The notes: a model not told the origin generated them from the letters alone. A stretch of 64,000 bases of DNA from Escherichia coli (GCF_016026235.1 NZ_CP065613.1); one strand, 5' to 3'. Numbered from the stretch's first letter, positions 56,939 through 64,000 are shown. A program made the numbers and translations.

Positions 56939-57424
56939 ATATTTGTTCCCTAAATACACTATGAGAACATACCTGTTAATTACAGGACAATATCAGGTGA
57001 ATGACCATGCAATTTAATAGTAGATTTCCAAGTATCTAAGCAGTTTTACACAGATTCTATGCAGTATCTTACAATCCCCTACACCACCTCTAAATAACAT
57101 AACTTATTGAAATATATAGAGAATCTGTAAAGCCTCTTTTCAGGGAACTATGCAGGGTGTTAGTCGTCCCTCTCCAGACACTACATATAGTGCTATATAC
57201 AGGGCCATATAACGATATATAGATGCTTGGTCACGTGGTGTAACTATCAAGAAACTTAACGATTTCCTGCGTGAAAGTTAGAAGTGATGGCTATAGTTAC
57301 CCTCCTGAATCTTCATAGTTGATTCGGTTAGTTGGGCTTGTTATGAAGATGCTTCATCCGAATCATCTACCAACCCCTAATCAACCTCATGCGCTCTATT
57401 AACCAGTCTCATAAGGAAGTCCTT

Positions 57425-57453
57425 TTGAGACACTTTCAACGTAACGGTAGAAT
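57425..57453 (+). promoter_or_regulatory. sigma-70 promoter for the recombinase (TTGAGA -17 bp- TAGAAT), embedded in repeated TTTTGAGAC motifs
   Basis: -35 at 57425-57430 and -10 at 57448-57453. The 11-bp inverted repeat ccttttgagac/gtctcaaaagg (57421-57431 / 57467-57477) brackets it; further TGAGAC copies at ~57491 and ~57505. Confidence 0.55.
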
Positions 57454-57526
57454 GCACCCTCAAGTAGTCTCAAAAGGTTGTTTTTGGATTATGAGACTAA
57501 CTTTTGAGACTTCTAAGGGGAACATT

Positions 57527-58078
57527 ATGGCGATACTTGGATATTGCAGGGTGAGTACAGATGACCAATCCATCACTAACCAGCAAATGCAAATTGAAGA
57601 GGCAGGGTACAACATTGCTAAATGGTTCACTGATGAAGCTGTCAGTGGTTCTGTCAAAGCTTCTTTAAGAAACGGTTTCAGTAGTTTGTTAGCTTATGCA
57701 CGAGAAGGTGACACCGTAGTTGTGGTAGCTGTAGACCGTCTTGGACGTGACACAATTGATGTGTTATCAACGGTTAAAGCGCTACAGGCTAAAGGTGTGA
57801 CAGTTATCAGCCTTAGAGAAGGGTTTGACTTATCAAGCGCTATGGGTGAAGCAATGTTAGGCATTATGTCAACGTTGGCACAGCTTGAAAGAAGCTTGAT
57901 AGCAGAGCGTAGAAAGGCTGGTATTGAACGTGCTAAAGCTGAAGGGGTACATATGGGAAGACCTGTAAAAGCTTCTTCAGAGGCTGTACAGATGCTTATT
58001 TCACAAGGTAAAACGAGGTTGCAGATTCAGGAAGAGCTAGGAATCTCTAGAGCAACTTATTACAGACTTGCTAAATAA
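57527..58078 (+). CDS. small serine recombinase of the Hin/Gin/Pin invertase-resolvase family (184 aa)
   Basis: MAILGYCRVSTDDQ catalytic-serine motif, VVAVDRLGRDTIDVL, C-terminal HTH GISRATYYRLAK; RBS taagggg 7 nt upstream. ORF track 57389..58078. Confidence 0.88.
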   Translation: MAILGYCRVSTDDQSITNQQMQIEEAGYNIAKWFTDEAVSGSVKASLRNGFSSLLAYAREGDTVVVVAVDRLGRDTIDVLSTVKALQAKGVTVISLREGFDLSSAMGEAMLGIMSTLAQLERSLIAERRKAGIERAKAEGVHMGRPVKASSEAVQMLISQGKTRLQIQEELGISRATYYRLAK

Positions 58079-58422
58079 GTTATTAAACAGTTACATGGAT
58101 GTGACTGATATTTGGCTTTTTTGCAAAGGGGGTGCTATATCGAGAATGTACCGTACCAAGCAGCTACAGACATCTGTTAGATATTTTCGAAGATTTTTAG
58201 AAGGGGAATTTGAAGAGGGGCTACTACGATTTTATAAAAATTTTCAGATTCTGAAAAGTTACTGTACAGAATACATACAGACATCTTTAAAGTATCTATA
58301 AAGACTTTTAAGATAAAAGATAGATATCCCAGAAAGGATATCCGTTTAGAAAGCCTGTTAAGTATCTCTTAAAAGAGAGTAAACCTTGTCAATAGTGATT
58401 GCAATAAAAATTTTTATTTCTT

Positions 58423-59085
58423 ATGTCAATTGAGCATATTTTAATCGGGAAACATCATGGGGGTTCTGATTACTGGAGAACTCCATTTCTTATATTCCGC
58501 AATTTGCACCGTGAATTTATTTTCAGTCTGGATGGTGCTGCAACTGAGCATGACACGCTGTTACCACGATTCACCGATGATATTCACAATCAGTCATGGG
58601 ATGGTGAAAGGGTCTTCGTTAACCCACCATACAGCGACACTAAAACATTCCTCGTAAAAGCGTCTGAAGCAGATTTAGCGGTATTCCTGATACCGTACCG
58701 ACCCCAAACCATATACTGGCTTAAGCACATCTTCACAAACCCGCTTTGCCATGAAATCCGTATTCTTCATCGTGCAGTTAAATACCTTCCACCAGCAGGG
58801 CATAACAGGCTTACTATTAGGTCACCGTTTCCAAGTGCAGTCGTTGTTTTTAAAAAAGAACCACGTAAGCATGAAATTACACAGATGATTTGCTGTGGTG
58901 ACACATTGCTACCGTTAACCATCATTAACCGTGGTGGACTAAGAGGAAGACCCACCATTTACCCACCTGAGACGCTCGACAGCTTCATAAAACTATACAG
59001 GCAAGGCAAACCCATTAAGTGCATTGCAGATGCTCTCAGAATGCCCCTGAGCACGTCATACAGGATTGCTCAAAGGTTGAGCTAA
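58423..59085 (+). CDS. phage Dam-type N6-adenine DNA methyltransferase (NPPY motif) with C-terminal resolvase-like HTH extension
   Basis: GGSDYWRTPF...FSLDGAATEHDT...ERVFVNPPYSD resembles the phage N-6-adenine-methyltransferase family. The last ~60 aa (PIKCIADALRMPLSTSYRIAQRLS) resemble a resolvase-type HTH. Confidence 0.7.
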   Translation: MSIEHILIGKHHGGSDYWRTPFLIFRNLHREFIFSLDGAATEHDTLLPRFTDDIHNQSWDGERVFVNPPYSDTKTFLVKASEADLAVFLIPYRPQTIYWLKHIFTNPLCHEIRILHRAVKYLPPAGHNRLTIRSPFPSAVVVFKKEPRKHEITQMICCGDTLLPLTIINRGGLRGRPTIYPPETLDSFIKLYRQGKPIKCIADALRMPLSTSYRIAQRLS

Positions 59086-59465
59086 AATTCTCATAAATAT
59101 GGTCATTTACAAGACAGGTGTTTTAGATATTAAGAAGTATCCCTGTGAACAATAAATGACCAATCAGTAATTATTCTGTGAAATAATTGTTGCAATTTAT
59201 AATCACATCTGTTATAGTTTCTATGGGCTGATAAAAGAACTCAGAACATTAAGAGGTTACAACGTTGGGAGGCGTCAGAGTATTGACGGATTTTCACAGC
59301 CTCTTATTCATTCAAGGCTTTTCCTTTTGCTGTTAATGCTCGCGTAATCGCTCAGGCTTCTGAGTTCCTTTATCAGTCCATCTTCTAATTAATTCACTCC
59401 CTCTGGGGTTGGTCACTATACGTGGTCAGCCCTTTCTTTGTTTTATTTTTAAAAAGGAAAACGTA

Positions 59466-60401
59466 ATGGAAAAATTTCACATGTTTGATGACCGTATTTA
59501 TCAGATGACTAATGGCGTTAAAGCTGCCGACCGTATTATTTACACTGTCATGTTGAATGAACAAAAGTTTTATCACGATAAGGGGCAATATTATACCCCT
59601 TCATATGCTCATCTTGGTCAGTATGCTGGAATCACAAGAACATCCGTGATTGCATGTATGAAACGACTTGAGGCACATGGTTTAATCAAGAAAACTAACG
59701 TTGCAAGCAATCAGTGTGTTATTAAAGTTTATTCACTTGATGAAGTACCGGAAGTTTTAACAGAGCTTACAGCTAAGGAAGCCAGAAAGGCAAAGCTGGA
59801 GTCTAAAGTTACTCAGTCAGTCAAGAAAGATGACCCACTGAGTCAAAATTCTTTACCCACTGAGTCAAAATTTTTTACTCAGTCAGTCAAAATCTTTGAC
59901 ACGTATAATAACAGTAATAACAAGAAAGAACTTATTAATAACAATAAAGAAGATGACTTTGAAGAAGAATCTCTTAAGAAGGGAGCTTCGCTCTGTGATT
60001 CACATGAATGTGATTCTCTTGGTATTGAAGAGGCTATTAAACAATCTGACTTGGATGACCTTGATAAAGAGGCTATTAAACAAGATGAAGTAAACTCTGA
60101 TGTGAATGAAGTTAGTGACCAGCAAGATACACCTTGCCGCCTCGAATCAACTGATGATGAATTACCGGATGTTGACCTTGATGATGAAGAAGACCCTGAA
60201 GAGGAATTGAAACGTGAACAGCGTAAAGCAGAAATTAAAGAAAGATTCAGAAAGGCGAAGCTAAAGAGCAGGATTGATGAACTTGATGACTTTGATGATA
60301 GTGACGATGATTTTACTTTTACACCAAAAAAGAAAACTCACACCGAGCCAAAGAAAGAAAAAGTTAAAGTCAGACGTGTTTATGGTGGAGGAATGTTTTA
60401 A
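59466..60401 (+). CDS. lambda-O-like replication initiator (winged-helix N-domain) with long acidic low-complexity C-terminus
   Basis: YTPSYAHLGQYAGITRTSVIACMKRLEAHGLIKK DNA-binding motif typical of phage replication-protein O N-domains; iterons inside the gene; RBS aaggaaa before ATG 59466. ORF track 59409..60401. Confidence 0.6.
   Translation: MEKFHMFDDRIYQMTNGVKAADRIIYTVMLNEQKFYHDKGQYYTPSYAHLGQYAGITRTSVIACMKRLEAHGLIKKTNVASNQCVIKVYSLDEVPEVLTELTAKEARKAKLESKVTQSVKKDDPLSQNSLPTESKFFTQSVKIFDTYNNSNNKKELINNNKEDDFEEESLKKGASLCDSHECDSLGIEEAIKQSDLDDLDKEAIKQDEVNSDVNEVSDQQDTPCRLESTDDELPDVDLDDEEDPEEELKREQRKAEIKERFRKAKLKSRIDELDDFDDSDDDFTFTPKKKTHTEPKKEKVKVRRVYGGGMF
59811..59893 (+). repeat. candidate origin: four iterons (ACTCAGTCAGTCAAG, ACCCACTGAGTCAAAATT x2, ACTCAGTCAGTCAAAAT) followed by an AT-rich stretch, inside the rep gene
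   Basis: Direct/inverted repeats read at 59811-59825, 59833-59850, 59855-59872 and 59877-59893, then acgtataataacagtaataacaag; architecture like lambda ori within gene O. Confidence 0.6.
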
Positions 60402-60691
60402 TGAAAACTTATAATGGCGAGAGAAAATACCGTGACTATTTACTCAGACGTTACAGCATTTCTCGTGAAGGTTACTTGATGAAAGATACTCACGGGGAAG
60501 TTTACCGGATTCGACCGAAGAAAGAAGGGAGGGATTATTATTTCGTCGATGGTGTGACAGATTTAAAGATTGACGCTTTGAGGTTTGCAGTGATGTATCA
60601 TTTTGATATCTGGGATTCAGTCCACCAGCTACGATTAAAAGACGGTGACCCCAATAACTTAAAGGCCACCAATATTATCACAAAACGTTAG
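60401..60691 (+). CDS. HNH_3/NUMOD4-like small protein (96 aa), translationally coupled to the rep gene (ATGA overlap)
   Basis: YSISREGYLMKDTHGEVYRIRPKKEGRDYYFVDGV...VHQLRLKDGDPNNLKATNI fits the Y-x-VS-x-G-x-V...H-x-DG-x-x-NN-x-x-NL pattern of phage HNH homing-endonuclease-like proteins. Confidence 0.45.
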   Translation: MKTYNGERKYRDYLLRRYSISREGYLMKDTHGEVYRIRPKKEGRDYYFVDGVTDLKIDALRFAVMYHFDIWDSVHQLRLKDGDPNNLKATNIITKR

Positions 60692-60873
60692 TTTGTTTTA
60701 CCATCATCAATCGTAATTGTGATTTCATATTTGAAAAGCTTAATGCTGAAATTGAATCGTGTACTTTTGGCGATAATCATTTTTAAAAGCTGATACACCA
60801 GAAGCACCAGAAACACAAAGCAACCTAAGCTTGCGAATCTGTGAGATTCAGCAATTGTTTCAAGAAAGCCCAT
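60688..60873 (-). CDS. 61-aa single-pass membrane protein on the opposite strand, with strong RBS
   Basis: MGFLETIAESHRFASLGCFVFLVLLVYQLLKMIIAK...; rc shows TAAGGGGAATTAATG (SD 5 nt before ATG); driven by a near-consensus minus-strand promoter. Confidence 0.55.
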   Translation of the reverse strand: MGFLETIAESHRFASLGCFVFLVLLVYQLLKMIIAKSTRFNFSIKLFKYEITITIDDGKTN

Positions 60874-60924
60874 TAATTCCCCTTATTTATCAAAGGGAAT
60901 GACCTGTATCAGCCCCCTATAAAC

Positions 60925-60975
60925 ATAATATCATGTAAATGAGATGTTGACAATATGTTAAATAAATGTTAAGAT
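60925..60975. promoter_or_regulatory. face-to-face divergent promoters sharing the TTGACAA core
   Basis: Minus strand: TTGTCA -17- TATTAT (60948-60953 / 60925-60930). Plus strand: TTGACA -17- TAAGAT (60947-60952 / 60970-60975). Geometry resembles a phage immunity/anti-immunity switch. Confidence 0.5.
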
Positions 60976-61011
60976 TGTAGTATGAGCAAGAGATTTAAGG
61001 AGATTTTTGCA

Positions 61012-61302
61012 ATGACTCACACAGTTACGCGCCTTTTGCCAGAGGCATTTGAACGACTGGCAGCAATCAAAGCCAAATACCCTGATATGAAGCACACAGC
61101 GCTTGTTGGAGAGCTTTTAAAAGAGTCGGTAGCCCTGACCCCTTTCGATAACGTTAAGGGCGTTGCAGAGGGTTCTAAGGCCATCAGAATCACAACAGGC
61201 CAACTGGAACTACTCAAAGCACAGTCCGCAGTAGCAGGTTGCTCAATGATTCAGGTGTTAAGCGCGAAGGTTCATCAACTGGCGGATAGATTGGAGGTTT
61301 GA
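61012..61302 (+). CDS. hypothetical protein (96 aa from ATG 61012 with AAGGAG SD; alternative leaderless start at 60982 gives 106 aa)
   Basis: MTHTVTRLLPEAFERLAAIKAKYPDMKHTALVGELLKE...; no recognisable domain. Confidence 0.5.
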   Translation: MTHTVTRLLPEAFERLAAIKAKYPDMKHTALVGELLKESVALTPFDNVKGVAEGSKAIRITTGQLELLKAQSAVAGCSMIQVLSAKVHQLADRLEV

Positions 61303-61727
61303 TGCTATGTACATTTGATTATCATGCGTTTTATCGCCATAGAGGTCATCTTGTCCGTGAGAATAACGGAACATGGAAAGATTTAACTCGTAATGCTGAA
61401 CCCTTCACACACCAGCAATTAAAATCCCGCTTCTCCAGATGGAAGAATGCACCAGCAGATACTGGTGATTTTGAGATTACCCATACATTTGATTACGCAT
61501 CAGAAGATGACCTTCGCAATGCAATTAAGCTGATTGAAGACTTCAATACCTCAGAAGATGTGGATGGTGACAAATATAAATCCCGTGGTAACCGCTATAA
61601 CCGTGATGATATCACTCAGGCCATAAATGCTGGTCAATCTCAGCGATACATCACAGAAAAATATGGTATTTCACGGAGACAGTATTTCTACGTTAAATCA
61701 TTGATTAATAAGGACAATTCAAAATAA
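61299..61727 (+). CDS. hypothetical protein with C-terminal resolvase-type HTH (142 aa)
   Basis: C-terminus DDITQAINAGQSQRYITEKYGISRRQYFYVKSL resembles invertase/resolvase HTH; ATGA-coupled to the upstream ORF. Confidence 0.5.
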   Translation: MMLCTFDYHAFYRHRGHLVRENNGTWKDLTRNAEPFTHQQLKSRFSRWKNAPADTGDFEITHTFDYASEDDLRNAIKLIEDFNTSEDVDGDKYKSRGNRYNRDDITQAINAGQSQRYITEKYGISRRQYFYVKSLINKDNSK

Positions 61728-61735
61728 CCATCTAA

Positions 61736-61752
61736 GTAACGGTAGAATGCAC
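61736..61752 (+). repeat. 17-bp motif GTAACGGTAGAATGCAC, second copy in direct orientation (first copy at 57441-57457 in the recombinase promoter)
   Basis: Exact 17/17 match read at both positions, 4.3 kb apart. Confidence 0.7.
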
Positions 61753-61888
61753 TTTACAGGCAGAGTTGCACCTTAATTTGATAAATTACCTTACCAGCCA
61801 GTGCAACTCCCTCTGTAACCCGCATGGTTACTGGCCTCAGAATGGCTATTTTAAGAGGTCTGAGATGTGTTTTATAGGAAATTTAAAA

Positions 61889-62212
61889 ATGAGCAATTAC
61901 GAATTACAGATTTTTGTTGATAACGACACCGTGACCATGCTTCAACACTTCACTGATGTAGGTATCGCAATTAATTTTGATAAATTACTAAAGCTGATGG
62001 CTGATAATGCAGAAAACATCTCTGACTTTATTCAGTCGGTGGAGTTTAACGAGCCCCGAATGATGCTACCAATTACAGACAGCAGTATGAAGCGTCTTAT
62101 TATTGAGGAAACTAACCGATACAGCGTTAGCCCTGAAAAATATCTCAAGGCGGCTGTAACAATTTTGTACGCTGACAGTATTCTGGTGACGGATTCTGTG
62201 AGGGTTCACTAA
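61889..62212 (+). CDS. hypothetical protein (107 aa from ATG 61889; ORF track 61766..62212 begins at an upstream TTG)
   Basis: MSNYELQIFVDNDTVTMLQHFTDVGIAINFDKLLKLMADNAENI...; no recognisable domain. Confidence 0.4.
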   Translation: MSNYELQIFVDNDTVTMLQHFTDVGIAINFDKLLKLMADNAENISDFIQSVEFNEPRMMLPITDSSMKRLIIEETNRYSVSPEKYLKAAVTILYADSILVTDSVRVH

Positions 62213-62313
62213 TGGGTTTAATAATTGCTTGGACGTTGCTTGGCTTATTTGTTGGTTGCTGGGTGGGTAATACGGTAAATAAAAATTGATATTACCAATC
62301 TGTTAAAAAGCTG

Positions 62314-62342
62314 TTGACAAATAACCTTAAGCATGGCATAAT
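62314..62342 (+). promoter_or_regulatory. near-consensus sigma-70 promoter TTGACA -17 bp- CATAAT
   Basis: -35 at 62314-62319, -10 at 62337-62342; no ORF for the next 335 nt. Confidence 0.6.
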
Positions 62343-62677
62343 TTTAATTATGGGAGAGCAATTCTCTCTTATTTCTTTCAACAATTCCATCTACGTCTAG
62401 GGATAGTTATTCTGAAAGGTGCAATGCTTTTCGTCATGGCTTATTTAGCCCGCACTAAATAGGCCATATCAAAAATCTTTGTTCATTCATTGAATCCTTT
62501 AGATGTTTTTAATTTCTTCACCTTATGAATAGCCCTTTATAAGAAATTATCTAGGGCTATTCAGTTTTTAAAAAGCATACTTGGCAAACGCTTTTAAGTC
62601 TCTTCTAAGTTTTTTGTATGGCTGTCAAGTATGCTTTTTAAAAACTGAAATACTTTAGCTTAGAAGAGGAAAAAACA
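62343..62677 (+). ncRNA. candidate structured leader/ncRNA with a 24-bp perfect inverted repeat (62560-62583 / 62626-62649, 42-nt loop) and a second 8-bp IR (atagccct...agggctat, ~62527-62560)
   Basis: ttcagtttttaaaaagcatacttg ... caagtatgctttttaaaaactgaa read directly; region lacks any ORF; ends 28 nt before the strong SD agaggaaaaaacaATG of the next gene. Confidence 0.45.
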
Positions 62678-63388
62678 ATGACAAACGATTTATATTTTAA
62701 CGGTCGAAAGATTGATAGCTTCGGTGACTGGTCACCACAGACTGAACATCCGCTACATATTATTCAGCGTCAAGAGCATGACAAGCGTATTGAGCTTGAG
62801 CAAGAAATCCGAAGGTCACCAAAGGTAATTTCCTTTGTGTCCCCTGAGCCTCAAGAGATGCCTGATGTATGCAAAACTGAATCATTATTTAATCTTGAGC
62901 GTGAATATTACCCACTGCTAAAAGCACAGCGTATTAAACTAGATGATGCTTACGATGCTGTTAAGAACTTCGAAGAAACCTCGAAACCTTCAGAATATGA
63001 TATTGCTTACGAGATTAAGTCAAACCCGTTTATCTATTATGAAGGAAACTTTAATGATGGTTTTGGTACAGCGATTGAAGACGTTCCTAAAGTTCTTCAA
63101 AGTATCCCTGAAGGGTTCCGGTTAATTGATGTCAGACAAGCATTAAGGGGTTCTGGTCAATTTATTCTGATGACTGGTAAAACAGATGAAGAGATTCTTC
63201 AGTTAGCTGAAGCTAATTTGACTAAGCATTATTCCGGTAAACTGGATAAGTTAAAGCAAAAGCTTAAAAAAGAACTTGATAGCATGAAAGAACTTGTTAG
63301 TGAATATGAATCACAGAAGAAGATTGCTATGCAGGCTGATATTGAGCAGCTTACGAAGATTTCTCAGAAATATAGCAAAGCACTTTAA
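62678..63388 (+). CDS. hypothetical protein (236 aa) with C-terminal coiled-coil
   Basis: MTNDLYFNGRKIDSFGDWSPQ...; strong RBS AGAGGA; K/E-rich heptad-like C-terminus; no recognisable domain. Confidence 0.6.
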   Translation: MTNDLYFNGRKIDSFGDWSPQTEHPLHIIQRQEHDKRIELEQEIRRSPKVISFVSPEPQEMPDVCKTESLFNLEREYYPLLKAQRIKLDDAYDAVKNFEETSKPSEYDIAYEIKSNPFIYYEGNFNDGFGTAIEDVPKVLQSIPEGFRLIDVRQALRGSGQFILMTGKTDEEILQLAEANLTKHYSGKLDKLKQKLKKELDSMKELVSEYESQKKIAMQADIEQLTKISQKYSKAL

Positions 63389-63402
63389 TTATGAGGTGGT
63401 GA

Positions 63403-63609
63403 ATGATTGATTTAACAGAACGCTATGAGCTTATTAAAGCAATTAGCGAACGATTGAAAGAACAACCCAACAAACCAAAACGAATCAAATCATCCACCTC
63501 CTCTAAGCAAAATAACAGAATCAGAAGAATCGCTAAATGGTGTCTTGATAAATTACCAAGTGATTGTCAGATTGTCGGTGAAGATGGTAATTATTATCTG
63601 GTTAGGTAA
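63403..63609 (+). CDS. hypothetical basic small protein (68 aa)
   Basis: MIDLTERYELIKAISERLKEQPNKPKRIKSS...; RBS gaggtggtga before the ATG. Confidence 0.45.
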   Translation: MIDLTERYELIKAISERLKEQPNKPKRIKSSTSSKQNNRIRRIAKWCLDKLPSDCQIVGEDGNYYLVR

Positions 63610-63633
63610 AAATTGGTTGGGTAGAAAATCTAC

Positions 63634-63676
63634 GGGAGAGATTATCGATATTATTCGGTAGTTTCTCCCTTTTTTG
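63634..63676 (+). terminator. possible rho-independent terminator (gggaga...tctccc + T6)
   Basis: 6-bp stem with long loop followed by tttttt. Confidence 0.35.
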
Positions 63677-63775
63677 TATGTGCACTACGTGAAATCTGTA
63701 AAGCTAATATCTACACTGAAAAATAGAATTTACGTACAACACGCTTAAACAAAGGTATGAGGTGAAAAAATATGA

Positions 63776-64000
63776 ATGAGCAAATTCACAGTTGATAGTT
63801 TTATCGTTGAACTGGGCTTCAATGAGAACGTTATTAAAGGTCTGCAAAAAGTTGAAAAGGCAGCTTTGCAGTCAGCACAAAAAATTGAACGGAATTTGAA
63901 TAGAGCGTTTAAGGTCGATACCAAGCAACTTGACAGCAATTTAACGGCTTCTTTAAAGTCAATGGAGGGGAAGATTAATAAAACTTTTGACCGTCTGGAA
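63776..64000 (+). CDS. 5' part of an ORF running off the window end
   Basis: MSKFTVDSFIVELGFNENVIKGLQKVEKAALQSAQKIERNLNRAF...; RBS gaggtg upstream; no stop before the window end. Confidence 0.45.
   Translation, partial: MSKFTVDSFIVELGFNENVIKGLQKVEKAALQSAQKIERNLNRAFKVDTKQLDSNLTASLKSMEGKINKTFDRLE

What the first reader, a model, noticed from the sequence alone, without database searches (positions are those of the whole stretch)
57421..57510. Repeated TTTTGAGAC half-sites and an 11-bp inverted repeat embedded in the recombinase promoter; 17-bp core repeated 4.3 kb downstream
The serine recombinase promoter (TTGAGA-17-TAGAAT) sits inside a 57-bp near-palindrome, ccttttgagac...gtctcaaaagg, with two further TGAGAC copies downstream. 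The central 17-mer GTAACGGTAGAATGCAC recurs exactly once more, in direct orientation, at 61736-61752, immediately after the stop of the 142-aa HTH protein. Direct repeats recognised by a small serine recombinase would delete or excise the 4.3-kb segment carrying the recombinase, MTase, rep/ori and small genes as a replication-competent circle. Alternatively the motif is a shared operator or promoter core, since it includes the -10.
Basis: seen in the sequence. Interest (0 to 1): 0.6.

Follow-up and report, generated by a model that had tools for sequence, protein, structure and literature searches.

The report
Resolvase res site around its promoter
The repeated TTTTGAGAC motifs are best read as the multi-part docking site (a "res" site) of the neighbouring small serine recombinase, built around that gene's own promoter inside a small mobile island of E. 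coli. The 17-base repeat 4.3 kb away is a second copy of the promoter core, not a cutting site, so this is an undescribed example of a well-known kind of system.

Summary
The sequence observations hold. The 17-mer occurs exactly twice in 64 kb (57441, 61736). TGAGAC/GTCTCA occurs 5 times in 105 bp, against 9 times in the rest of the window.

With it, the motifs form a resolvase-type res site:
- Site I (57406-57431) is a 12+2+12 palindrome.
- A 35-bp spacer holds the sigma-70 -10 and the 17-mer.
- Accessory half-sites follow at 57467, 57489 and 57502.

Relatives carry six half-sites. The window lacks one 17-bp unit.

The same geometry sits upstream of homologous recombinases (54-67% identity) in Enterobacter, Klebsiella, Raoultella, Yersinia and Aeromonas, in unrelated islands. 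In Aeromonas the half-site core changes together with the DNA-binding domain. The recombinase is closest to gamma-delta/Tn3 resolvase.

The proposed excision between the 17-mers is not supported:
- The 17-mer has no half-sites and no dyad symmetry.
- Its two copies occur independently of each other among relatives.
- No deletion or tandem junction exists in 5426 E. coli genomes.

Most likely function: resolution of island multimers plus autorepression. Copy 2 is probably an internal promoter core. This is ordinary biology in an uncharacterised family and island.

The parts
56965..64000 (+). Left ~7 kb of an ~11.8-kb integrative island inserted inside mdtG. The island runs off the window end.
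   Evidence: Relatives match from window ~56965 onward. The complete copy between yciI and tonB in MRE162 ends with a 506-aa large serine recombinase. RM9088 and GN4751 share the mdtG junction.
57406..57431 (.). Site I, the candidate crossover site. It is a 26-bp palindrome, GTCTCATAAGGA-AG-TCCTTTTGAGAC (12+2+12), with its central dinucleotide at 57418-57419.
   Evidence: Sequence. Most relatives read GTCTTAAAAGGA-CT-TCCTTTTGAGAC. The same 12+2+12 layout occurs in other genera.
57425..57453 (+). Sigma-70-like promoter of the recombinase gene. The -35 TTGAGA (57425-57430) lies inside the right half of site I. The -10 is TAGAAT (57448-57453).
   Evidence: Promoter scan, 10/12 with 17-bp spacing.
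57432..57466 (.). 35-bp spacer between site I and site II. It carries the -10 and the 17-mer.
   Evidence: Spacer length is 34-35 bp in all homologues, while its sequence diverges between genera.
57441..57457 (+). 17-mer copy 1, GTAACGGTAGAATGCAC (the -10 plus its flanks).
   Evidence: A related core, AACGnnAGAATGC, is kept in L019, L021 and L032.
57467..57497 (.). Accessory site II. The left half is GTCTCAAAAGGT (57467-57478) and the right half is TTATGAGAC (57489-57497), in inverted orientation. The left half lies about +6 to +19 from the expected transcription start.
   Evidence: The distance from II-L to II-R is 25-26 bp in all homologues.
57502..57510 (+). The remaining half of accessory site III (TTTTGAGAC). 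The partner unit is missing because of a 17-bp deletion at about 57497/57498.
   Evidence: All 14 other E. coli/E. albertii copies carry the extra AGCTAAACTTATGAGAC. No contiguous match to the window's version was found in 138 genomes.
57527..58078 (+). Small serine recombinase, 183 aa: resolvase catalytic domain plus HTH_7 DNA-binding domain.
   Evidence: Pfam Resolvase 6e-42 and HTH_7. Best solved relative is gamma-delta resolvase at 6e-31, against Gin invertase at 8e-22. Ser10, Arg8 and the DRLGR motif are conserved in that alignment.
59466..60401 (+). Lambda-O-like replication initiator, with iterons TTACTCAGTCAGTCAA at 59809-59890 inside the gene. This is context showing that the island can probably replicate.
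   Evidence: PHROG replication initiation families. Iterons at 44- and 22-bp spacing.
61736..61752 (+). 17-mer copy 2 (20/22 match over 61731-61752). It lies in the intergenic region between the 142-aa ORF and the 107-aa ORF (61889) and is probably an internal promoter core with a weak -35.
   Evidence: It is present without any recombinase in L011 and absent from L007, L009 and L010.

Best explanation
Positions 57406-57510 form a res-type recombination and regulatory site for the adjacent small serine recombinase.

Proposed mechanism (inferred):
- Recombinase dimers bind pairs of GTCTYAWAA half-sites.
- Site I is a 12+2+12 palindrome, and strand exchange would occur at its central dinucleotide (57418-57419).
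- Downstream accessory half-sites (an inverted pair, then a direct pair 13 bp apart in intact copies) would build the synaptic complex.
- That complex restricts recombination to two res sites in direct repeat on one supercoiled molecule.
- An island carries one res, so the natural substrate is a dimer or multimer of the excised, replicating island, which would be resolved to monomers.
- The -35 lies inside site I and the left half of site II lies just downstream of the transcription start. Bound recombinase should therefore also repress its own promoter, as Tn3/gamma-delta resolvase does.

[quoted passage not shown] Its second copy at 61736 is most likely an internal promoter core of one island module, not a recombination site.

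Shown here: the motifs, their geometry, their conservation and co-variation with the recombinase, and the absence of 17-mer junctions. Inferred: binding, catalysis, autorepression and multimer resolution.
For: 1. Motif clustering: five hexamers in 105 bp, P about 1e-11. No half-site cluster occurs elsewhere in complete islands.

2. Conservation in close relatives: 15 E. coli/E. albertii copies keep six half-sites in fixed register.

3. Conservation in distant relatives: homologues of 54-67% identity share the same layout. They come from Enterobacter (L018), Serratia/Cronobacter-type (L023), Raoultella/Klebsiella (L019-L022), Yersinia (L024), a second E. coli island type (L032) and Aeromonas (L025).
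   - The layout is I-L to II-L 60-61 bp, II-L to II-R 25-26 bp, then +16/17 and +13/14 bp, with diverged spacers.
   - The neighbouring genes differ (AbiTii, capsid, AAA_15, AIPR, MTase). The recombinase is therefore the only constant partner.

4. Co-variation: in Aeromonas the core changes from GTCTCA to GGCTCA/AGCTCA, and the recognition-helix region changes with it.

5. Co-inheritance: two E. coli recombinase alleles differ by about 27% in the catalytic domain. They share near-identical DNA-binding domains and near-identical sites.

6. Joint absence: islands without the recombinase also lack the sites (L011).

7. Family placement: the protein is closest to gamma-delta/Tn3 resolvase. Y57-x-R59 is invariant, and R59 aligns with the regulatory position gamma-delta E56 / Sin R54 (PMC2428073).

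8. Match to published res architecture: three dimers per 114-bp res for Tn3. For Sin, an inverted site I, a spacer, and a head-to-tail site II (PMC2428073, PMC2602789, PMC9943657).

9. Promoter position.

10. Replication module with iterons in the island.
Against: - No experiment: binding, cleavage and resolution are all inferred.
- The assignment of half-sites to dimers (II inverted, III direct) is my reading of the geometry.
- The window's copy has lost one half-site unit and has a divergent left half of site I, so this particular copy may be impaired.
- Near-identity of the site region and of the DBD-coding 3' end at the nucleotide level (93-98%) could partly reflect recent recombination rather than selection. 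The cross-genus data argue otherwise.
- Two directly oriented, near-identical res sites lie 917 kb apart in one chromosome without deletion. This is compatible with a topologically restricted resolvase but equally with an inactive one.
- Copy 2 has only a weak -35 (TTCAAA at a 19-bp spacing, outside the scan's 16-18 limits). Its promoter role is therefore unproven.
Confidence: 0.72

Rival explanations
1. The two directly repeated 17-mers are crossover sites for the small serine recombinase, which deletes or excises the 4.3-kb segment carrying the recombinase, MTase and rep/ori as a replicating circle.
For: The 17-mer is an exact direct repeat that is unlikely by chance. The segment between the copies contains a Rep gene with iterons.
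Against: - The 17-mer has no dyad symmetry and no GTCTCA half-site.
- Copy 2 has no half-site cluster nearby. The nearest one-mismatch 9-mer lies 267 bp away.
- The copies occur independently: copy 1 alone in L007, L009 and L010; copy 2 alone, with no recombinase, in L011.
- No deletion junction and no circle/tandem junction occurs in 5426 genomes.
- Other islands with the same res have no second copy.
- In related res sites the spacer sequence is not conserved.
Confidence: 0.03
2. The TGAGAC array is only an operator. The recombinase, or another HTH_7 protein of the island such as the MTase-HTH fusion or the 142-aa protein, binds it to control the leftmost rightward promoter, with no recombination function.
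For: The -35 lies in a half-site and another half-site lies just after the start site. The MTase carries an HTH_7 domain. One res per island gives no substrate in the integrated state. Two res sites coexist in one chromosome.
Against: - The array travels with the recombinase into islands that have no MTase or 142-aa gene.
- Catalytic residues (Ser10, Arg8, DRLGR) are conserved in both diverged alleles.
- A strict 12+2+12 palindrome plus fixed accessory geometry exceeds what an operator needs.
- Autoregulation and recombination coexist in Tn3/gamma-delta res (established knowledge).
Confidence: 0.15
3. The recombinase is a DNA invertase of the Hin/Gin/Pin type, and site I is one end of an invertible segment whose partner lies elsewhere.
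For: PHROG and some source annotations call the family 'DNA invertase'. Site I is 26 bp with a 12+2+12 layout and a non-palindromic centre, like hix/gix sites (my knowledge).
Against: - No second site I or half-site pair occurs in any complete island or in the 64-kb window.
- Invertases need no array of accessory half-sites, and this array is conserved across genera.
- The protein scores higher against gamma-delta/Tn3 resolvase than against Gin.
- No inverted arrangement was seen among relatives.
Confidence: 0.04
4. The TGAGAC repeats are iterons or origin elements for the island's Rep protein.
For: They are repeated short motifs near a replication module.
Against: - Spacing is irregular and orientations are mixed.
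- Rep has its own regularly spaced iterons inside its gene.
- The array occurs in islands with different or no such Rep, and next to the recombinase in every case.
Confidence: 0.02

Closest known systems
Tn3 / gamma-delta resolvase with its 114-bp res site
   Same: - The protein is a 183-aa small serine recombinase and its best solved relative (6e-31).
- Intact copies have six half-sites, enough for three dimers, within about 122 bp directly upstream of the recombinase gene.
- The crossover-type site I lies farthest from the gene.
- The promoter is embedded, so binding should autorepress.
- The half-site has an outer G/C-containing core followed by an inner A/T tract (GTCTCAAAA, against TGTCYRTTA as I recall it).
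   Different: - It is not part of a transposon; there is no tnpA.
- Site I is 26 bp rather than 28 bp, and its centre is non-palindromic (CT/AG/TC).
- A 34-35-bp gap separates sites I and II.
- The last pair of half-sites is a direct repeat 13 bp apart rather than an inverted repeat.
- Protein identity is only about 35-40%.
Sin / beta-recombinase type res (86 bp; site I, HU/IHF-bound spacer, head-to-tail site II)
   Same: - An inverted site I is followed by a spacer of roughly 35 bp, then accessory half-sites that include a head-to-tail pair (PMC2428073).
- An aromatic-x-Arg motif (Y57, R59) sits at the position of Sin F52/R54.
- The presumed role is multimer resolution of a replicon.
   Different: - There is an extra inverted accessory pair between the spacer and the direct pair, giving three dimers rather than two.
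- The spacer holds the promoter, and no clear IHF consensus was seen by eye.
- The protein scores much lower against Sin (1e-13) than against gamma-delta resolvase.
Hin/Gin/Pin DNA invertases with hix/gix sites
   Same: Both involve a small serine recombinase with an HTH, 26-bp crossover sites of 12+2+12 with an asymmetric central dinucleotide, and a frequent setting in prophages.
   Different: No inverted partner site and no invertible segment was found. A conserved array of accessory half-sites takes the place of a Fis enhancer. Similarity to Gin is lower than to resolvases.
Multimer-resolution systems of plasmids and plasmid-prophages (RK2 ParA/res, P1 Cre/lox, ColE1 cer/Xer)
   Same: The proposed job is the same: one site per replicon and a dedicated or recruited recombinase that converts dimers to monomers.
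   Different: Here the replicon is an integrative island that also has a separate large serine integrase. Replication as a circle is inferred, not shown.

Membership tests
Resolvase/res systems (small serine recombinase) | Adjacent small serine recombinase with the catalytic Ser10 domain and a C-terminal HTH | tested here: met
   Pfam Resolvase 6e-42 plus HTH_7. Full-length alignment to gamma-delta resolvase with Ser10, Arg8 and DRLGR conserved.
Resolvase/res systems (small serine recombinase) | Crossover site made of two inverted ~12-bp half-sites around a central 2-bp overlap | tested here: met
   57406-57431 reads GTCTCATAAGGA-AG-TCCTTTTGAGAC. The same layout occurs in 15 close and at least 8 distant copies. 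Cleavage at the centre has not been tested.
Resolvase/res systems (small serine recombinase) | Additional accessory binding sites for the same recombinase at fixed distances from site I | tested here: met
   Intact copies have four further half-sites at conserved offsets across genera. The window's copy keeps only three of them because of a 17-bp deletion.
Resolvase/res systems (small serine recombinase) | Half-site sequence co-varies with the recombinase DNA-binding domain | tested here: met
   Aeromonas L025 has a GGCTCA/AGCTCA core with an altered HTH region. The E. coli A and B alleles share both DBD and sites. The sample is small.
Resolvase/res systems (small serine recombinase) | Site overlaps the recombinase promoter (autoregulation) | tested here: inconclusive
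   The -35 lies inside I-R and II-L lies at about +6 to +19. Repression itself was not testable.
Resolvase/res systems (small serine recombinase) | Catalyses resolution between two directly repeated res sites on one supercoiled molecule | not testable with these tools
   Needs a two-res plasmid assay.
DNA invertase systems (Hin/Gin/Pin) | Two crossover sites in inverted orientation flanking an invertible segment | tested here: not met
   No second site or half-site cluster in the window or in complete islands L002, L006, L009 and L010.
DNA invertase systems (Hin/Gin/Pin) | Fis-dependent enhancer in cis | not tested
   No reliable sequence test was available here.
   The 17-mer is asymmetric and lacks GTCTCA. 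No cluster occurs near 61736.
   The copies occur independently of each other. Zero junction matches in 5426 genomes.

The most novel reading that the evidence does not exclude
This res has a hybrid architecture: an inverted site I, a promoter-bearing 34-35-bp spacer, an inverted site II, and a head-to-tail site III with a 13-bp period. That would bridge the Tn3-type and Sin-type synaptic complexes.

It would also be a portable cassette shared by many unrelated enterobacterial islands, satellites and prophages. There the resolvase would double as the repressor of the island's leftmost early promoter, tying island gene expression to copy number or multimer state.

The second 17-mer would then be an unrepressed twin of that promoter, driving the distal (tape-measure/Dit) module.
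Probability: 0.2. Interest if true: 0.5.

Novelty: new member of a known kind. Interest (0 to 1): 0.3.

Why it matters
It replaces a speculative "excisable replicating circle" with a concrete, testable anatomy: crossover point, accessory sites and promoter. The module is found in about 180 of 5426 complete E. coli genomes and in several other genera, always just upstream of an unnamed "recombinase family protein".

For annotators, it shows these genes are resolvase-type with a recognisable res, not invertases.

For people who study serine recombinases, the mixed inverted/direct accessory layout and the natural domain-swapped alleles (different catalytic domains on the same DNA-binding domain and site) are convenient material.

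For mobile-element biology, it hints that these small islands replicate as circles that need dimer resolution. None of this is surprising in principle.

Tried and rejected
- **Junction searches.** I searched for the predicted deletion junction and for the circle/tandem junction at the 17-mer in 5426 genomes. None was found.
- **Further copies.** I looked for extra copies of the half-sites or the 17-mer in complete islands and beyond. None was found. In IMG/VR the 17-mer occurs only as copy 1 in two prophage-like contigs, plus one chance hit in a coding region.
- **Segmental duplication.** I tested whether copy 2 is part of a duplication of the recombinase region. The recombinase shows no protein similarity to the 107-aa or 142-aa ORFs. 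A nearly collinear 20-mer (D13) is within chance.
- **RNA.** Rfam gave nothing near gathering score for the intergenic region after copy 2. Folding gave z = -0.5.
- **CT versus AG at the site I centre.** I considered this a barrier between co-resident islands. A genome with two islands has CT at both, so I dropped the idea.
- **Rep iterons.** Rejected, because Rep has its own iterons.
- **Literature.** Two searches for this island type found nothing relevant.
- **Genome-contig scan.** A single-protein query returned only 3 loci. Cross-genus copies came instead from the protein search plus contig look-ups.

Full report
**1. Setting**

Positions 52460-56950 of the window are E. coli chromosome: mdoH, yceK, msyB and a 5'-truncated mdtG. 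From about 56965 to the window end, the DNA belongs to a compact integrative island that interrupts mdtG.

Related copies in other genomes:
- RM9088 and GN4751 have the same mdtG junction.
- A complete copy of about 11.8 kb lies between yciI and tonB in strain MRE162.
- Other copies lie inside yecE/DUF72.

Gene order of the island:
- a small serine recombinase (57527-58078);
- a Dam-like methyltransferase fused to an HTH_7 domain;
- a lambda-O-like initiator with iterons inside its gene (59809-59890);
- several small ORFs;
- beyond the window, a tape-measure-like protein, a Dit-like protein and a 506-aa large serine recombinase at the far end.

**2. The observation**

All the stated sequence features are present.

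The 17-mer:
- It occurs exactly twice, both on the + strand, with no other match at up to 3 mismatches in 64 kb.
- The similarity extends to 20 of 22 bases.
- A direct repeat this long arose in 1 of 300 dinucleotide shuffles of the island DNA, so it is unlikely to be chance.

The TGAGAC/GTCTCA hexamer:
- It occurs 14 times in the window, and five of those lie in 57406-57510.

The promoter TTGAGA-17-TAGAAT is a good sigma-70 match.

**3. Anatomy**

| Element | Coordinates | Sequence or note |
|---|---|---|
| Site I | 57406-57431 | GTCTCATAAGGA-AG-TCCTTTTGAGAC, two inverted 12-mers around a central dinucleotide |
| Spacer | 57432-57466 | 35 bp; holds the -10 and the 17-mer |
| II-L | 57467-57478 | GTCTCAAAAGGT |
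| II-R | 57489-57497 | TTATGAGAC, in inverted orientation to II-L |
| III-R | 57502-57510 | TTTTGAGAC, in the same orientation as II-R |

The -35 hexamer lies entirely within the right half of site I. II-L lies about 6-19 bp after the expected transcription start.

**4. Close relatives**

I aligned fifteen copies from E. coli and E. albertii.
- All except the window have six half-sites. An extra unit, AGCTAAACTTATGAGAC, follows II-R and gives a direct pair, TTATGAGAC-TAAC-TTTTGAGAC.
- No contiguous match to the window's shortened version exists among the 138 complete genomes that match this stretch. No copy at least 95% identical to the window's site region exists among 183 genomes.
- Most copies have a nearly perfect site I, GTCTTAAAAGGA-CT-TCCTTTTGAGAC. 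The window, GN4751 and TL20 have AG at the centre.

The recombinase gene comes in two alleles:
- They are about 27% different in protein over residues 1-125 and 60-65% identical in DNA there.
- Their last 58 residues (arm plus HTH) are almost invariant.
- The site region and the 3' coding part are 93-98% identical in DNA.

Islands that lack the recombinase, such as ZJ3920, lack the whole site cluster too.

**5. Distant relatives**

A protein search found a large family in Enterobacteriaceae and beyond. I retrieved the DNA for members at 54-67% identity:
- Enterobacter, a Serratia/Cronobacter-type contig, Raoultella/Klebsiella, Klebsiella, Yersinia and Aeromonas;
- a second E. coli island type.

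The neighbouring genes are unrelated from one to the next: AbiTii, a capsid gene, AAA_15 with a tyrosine integrase, AIPR, VapE-like. Yet the same layout lies just upstream of the recombinase start in every case:
- a 12+2+12 palindrome;
- a 34-35-bp spacer;
- II-L 60-61 bp after I-L;
- II-R 25-26 bp further on;
- two more half-sites after 16-17 and 13-14 bp.

Spacer sequences diverge while the cores persist. In Aeromonas the core becomes GGCTCA/AGCTCA, and the HTH region of the protein changes with it.

More distant homologues were inspected by eye only. In Pseudomonas (L004) I noted a direct pair at a 13-bp period just before the ribosome-binding site. In Laribacter (L026) I noted both the 13-bp direct pair and a 12+2+12-like palindrome.

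The recombinase is the only gene that always accompanies the array. This is the main argument that the recombinase is the protein that binds it.

**6. What it resembles**

By sequence the protein is nearest to gamma-delta and Tn3 resolvases (6e-31 and 5.5e-28). Gin invertase (8e-22) and Sin (1e-13) score lower.

Published res architecture:
- Tn3/gamma-delta res is 114 bp and binds three dimers at inverted-repeat sites.
- Sin res is 86 bp, with an inverted site I, a spacer bent by HU/IHF, and a head-to-tail site II.
- In both, cleavage occurs at the centre of site I with 2-nt overhangs (PMC2428073, PMC2602789, PMC9943657).

The present array has the three-dimer count of Tn3 res. It combines this with a Sin-like long spacer and a Sin-like head-to-tail final pair.

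An invariant Y57-x-R59 aligns with the position of gamma-delta E56. The Sin paper equates that position with Sin R54 and its partner F52, residues used for communication between regulatory and catalytic tetramers. I treat this as a lead, not a test.

**7. Likely mechanism**

The island has one res, so nothing should happen in the integrated single copy except promoter occupancy.
- After excision by the large serine integrase and replication from the O-like origin, homologous recombination or rolling replication would give dimers with two res in direct repeat.
- The resolvase would convert these to monomers.
- Occupancy of site I (-35) and II-L (just after +1) should repress the recombinase promoter, as in Tn3.

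All of these steps are inferred.

The window's copy has lost one accessory half-site and carries a divergent I-L. It may therefore be a weakened version.

One genome carries two islands 917 kb apart with near-identical res in the same orientation. This fits a recombinase that needs a compact supercoiled synapse, but it does not prove activity.

**8. The 17-mer**

[quoted passage not shown] A related core, AACGnnAGAATGC, occupies the same place in several other lineages (L019, L021, L032). Others (L018, L023, L024, L025) have unrelated spacers, so the 17-mer is not part of the recombinase-binding architecture.

Copy 2 lies in a highly conserved intergenic block after the 142-aa ORF and 137 bp before the next ORF.

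The two copies occur independently of each other:

| Islands | Copy 1 | Copy 2 |
|---|---|---|
| L007, L009, L010 (a different middle module) | present | absent |
| L011 (no recombinase, no res) | absent | present |

- Neither recombinant junction exists in 5426 genomes.
- Copy 2 has no good -35 (TTCAAA at 19 bp, by eye).
- No Rfam family and no unusual RNA fold follow it.

I conclude that it is most likely a second, weaker or activator-dependent promoter core derived from or convergent with the first. A shared binding site for an unknown factor remains possible. A recombination role is very unlikely.

**9. Verdict**

The excision model is wrong.

The feature is a resolvase res site wrapped around the resolvase promoter. 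It is a new, uncharacterised member of a well-known class, with a somewhat unusual mix of inverted and direct accessory sites. Interest is modest.

Noticed in passing
window 56965-64000; complete copy L002 11750-23550: The host element is a compact ~11.8-kb island. It has a large serine integrase, an O-like Rep with in-gene iterons, an MTase-HTH_7 fusion, a 710-aa tape-measure-like protein and a Dit-like protein, but no capsid, terminase or lysis genes. It inserts at three sites: inside mdtG, between yciI and tonB, and inside yecE. I found no paper describing it, and it may be an undescribed satellite-like element.
   Followed up: partly
window ~57318-57392: A nested palindromic, MITE-like insert (GTTGATTCGG...AATCAACC) lies between the island end and the res. 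Its length varies among relatives, and one relative has two copies. A 62-bp piece also occurs in many E. coli genomes at places with no annotated feature and no recombinase match (H50-H65).
   Followed up: no
window 62560-62586 / 62623-62649: A 27-nt inverted repeat, 96% complementary with a 36-nt loop, lies just upstream of the 236-aa ORF that PGAP calls 'transposase'. It is conserved in MRE162. It may be a cis-acting site.
   Followed up: no
window 57527-58078 versus L006, L007, L008, L010: Natural domain-swapped recombinase alleles. The catalytic-domain coding part is only 60-65% identical in DNA. It is flanked by a res region and a DNA-binding-domain coding part that are 93-98% identical.
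   Followed up: yes
window 57418-57419 and the equivalent position in relatives: The central dinucleotide of site I varies between CT (most E. coli copies), AG (the window, GN4751, TL20, Enterobacter, Aeromonas) and TC (Klebsiella L021, Yersinia, E. coli EC96). CT and AG are reverse complements of each other on an otherwise palindromic site. A genome with two islands has CT at both.
   Followed up: partly
window 58423-59085: The Dam-like N6-adenine methyltransferase carries a C-terminal resolvase-type HTH_7 domain. By eye, the C-terminus of the 142-aa ORF (61299-61727) also looks HTH_7-like, but Pfam and BLASTP did not confirm this.
   Followed up: partly
L008 (E. coli E2855), L029 and L031 (IMG/VR contigs of 52-54 kb): The same res-recombinase module also sits at the end of lambdoid prophage-like elements. 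It therefore moves between islands and prophages as a cassette.
   Followed up: partly
L007 13767-15651, L009 12797-14607, L010 12713-14546: In one island variant, about 1.8 kb between the recombinase and the next annotated gene carries no annotated feature. This replaces the MTase/Rep module of the window's variant.
   Followed up: no
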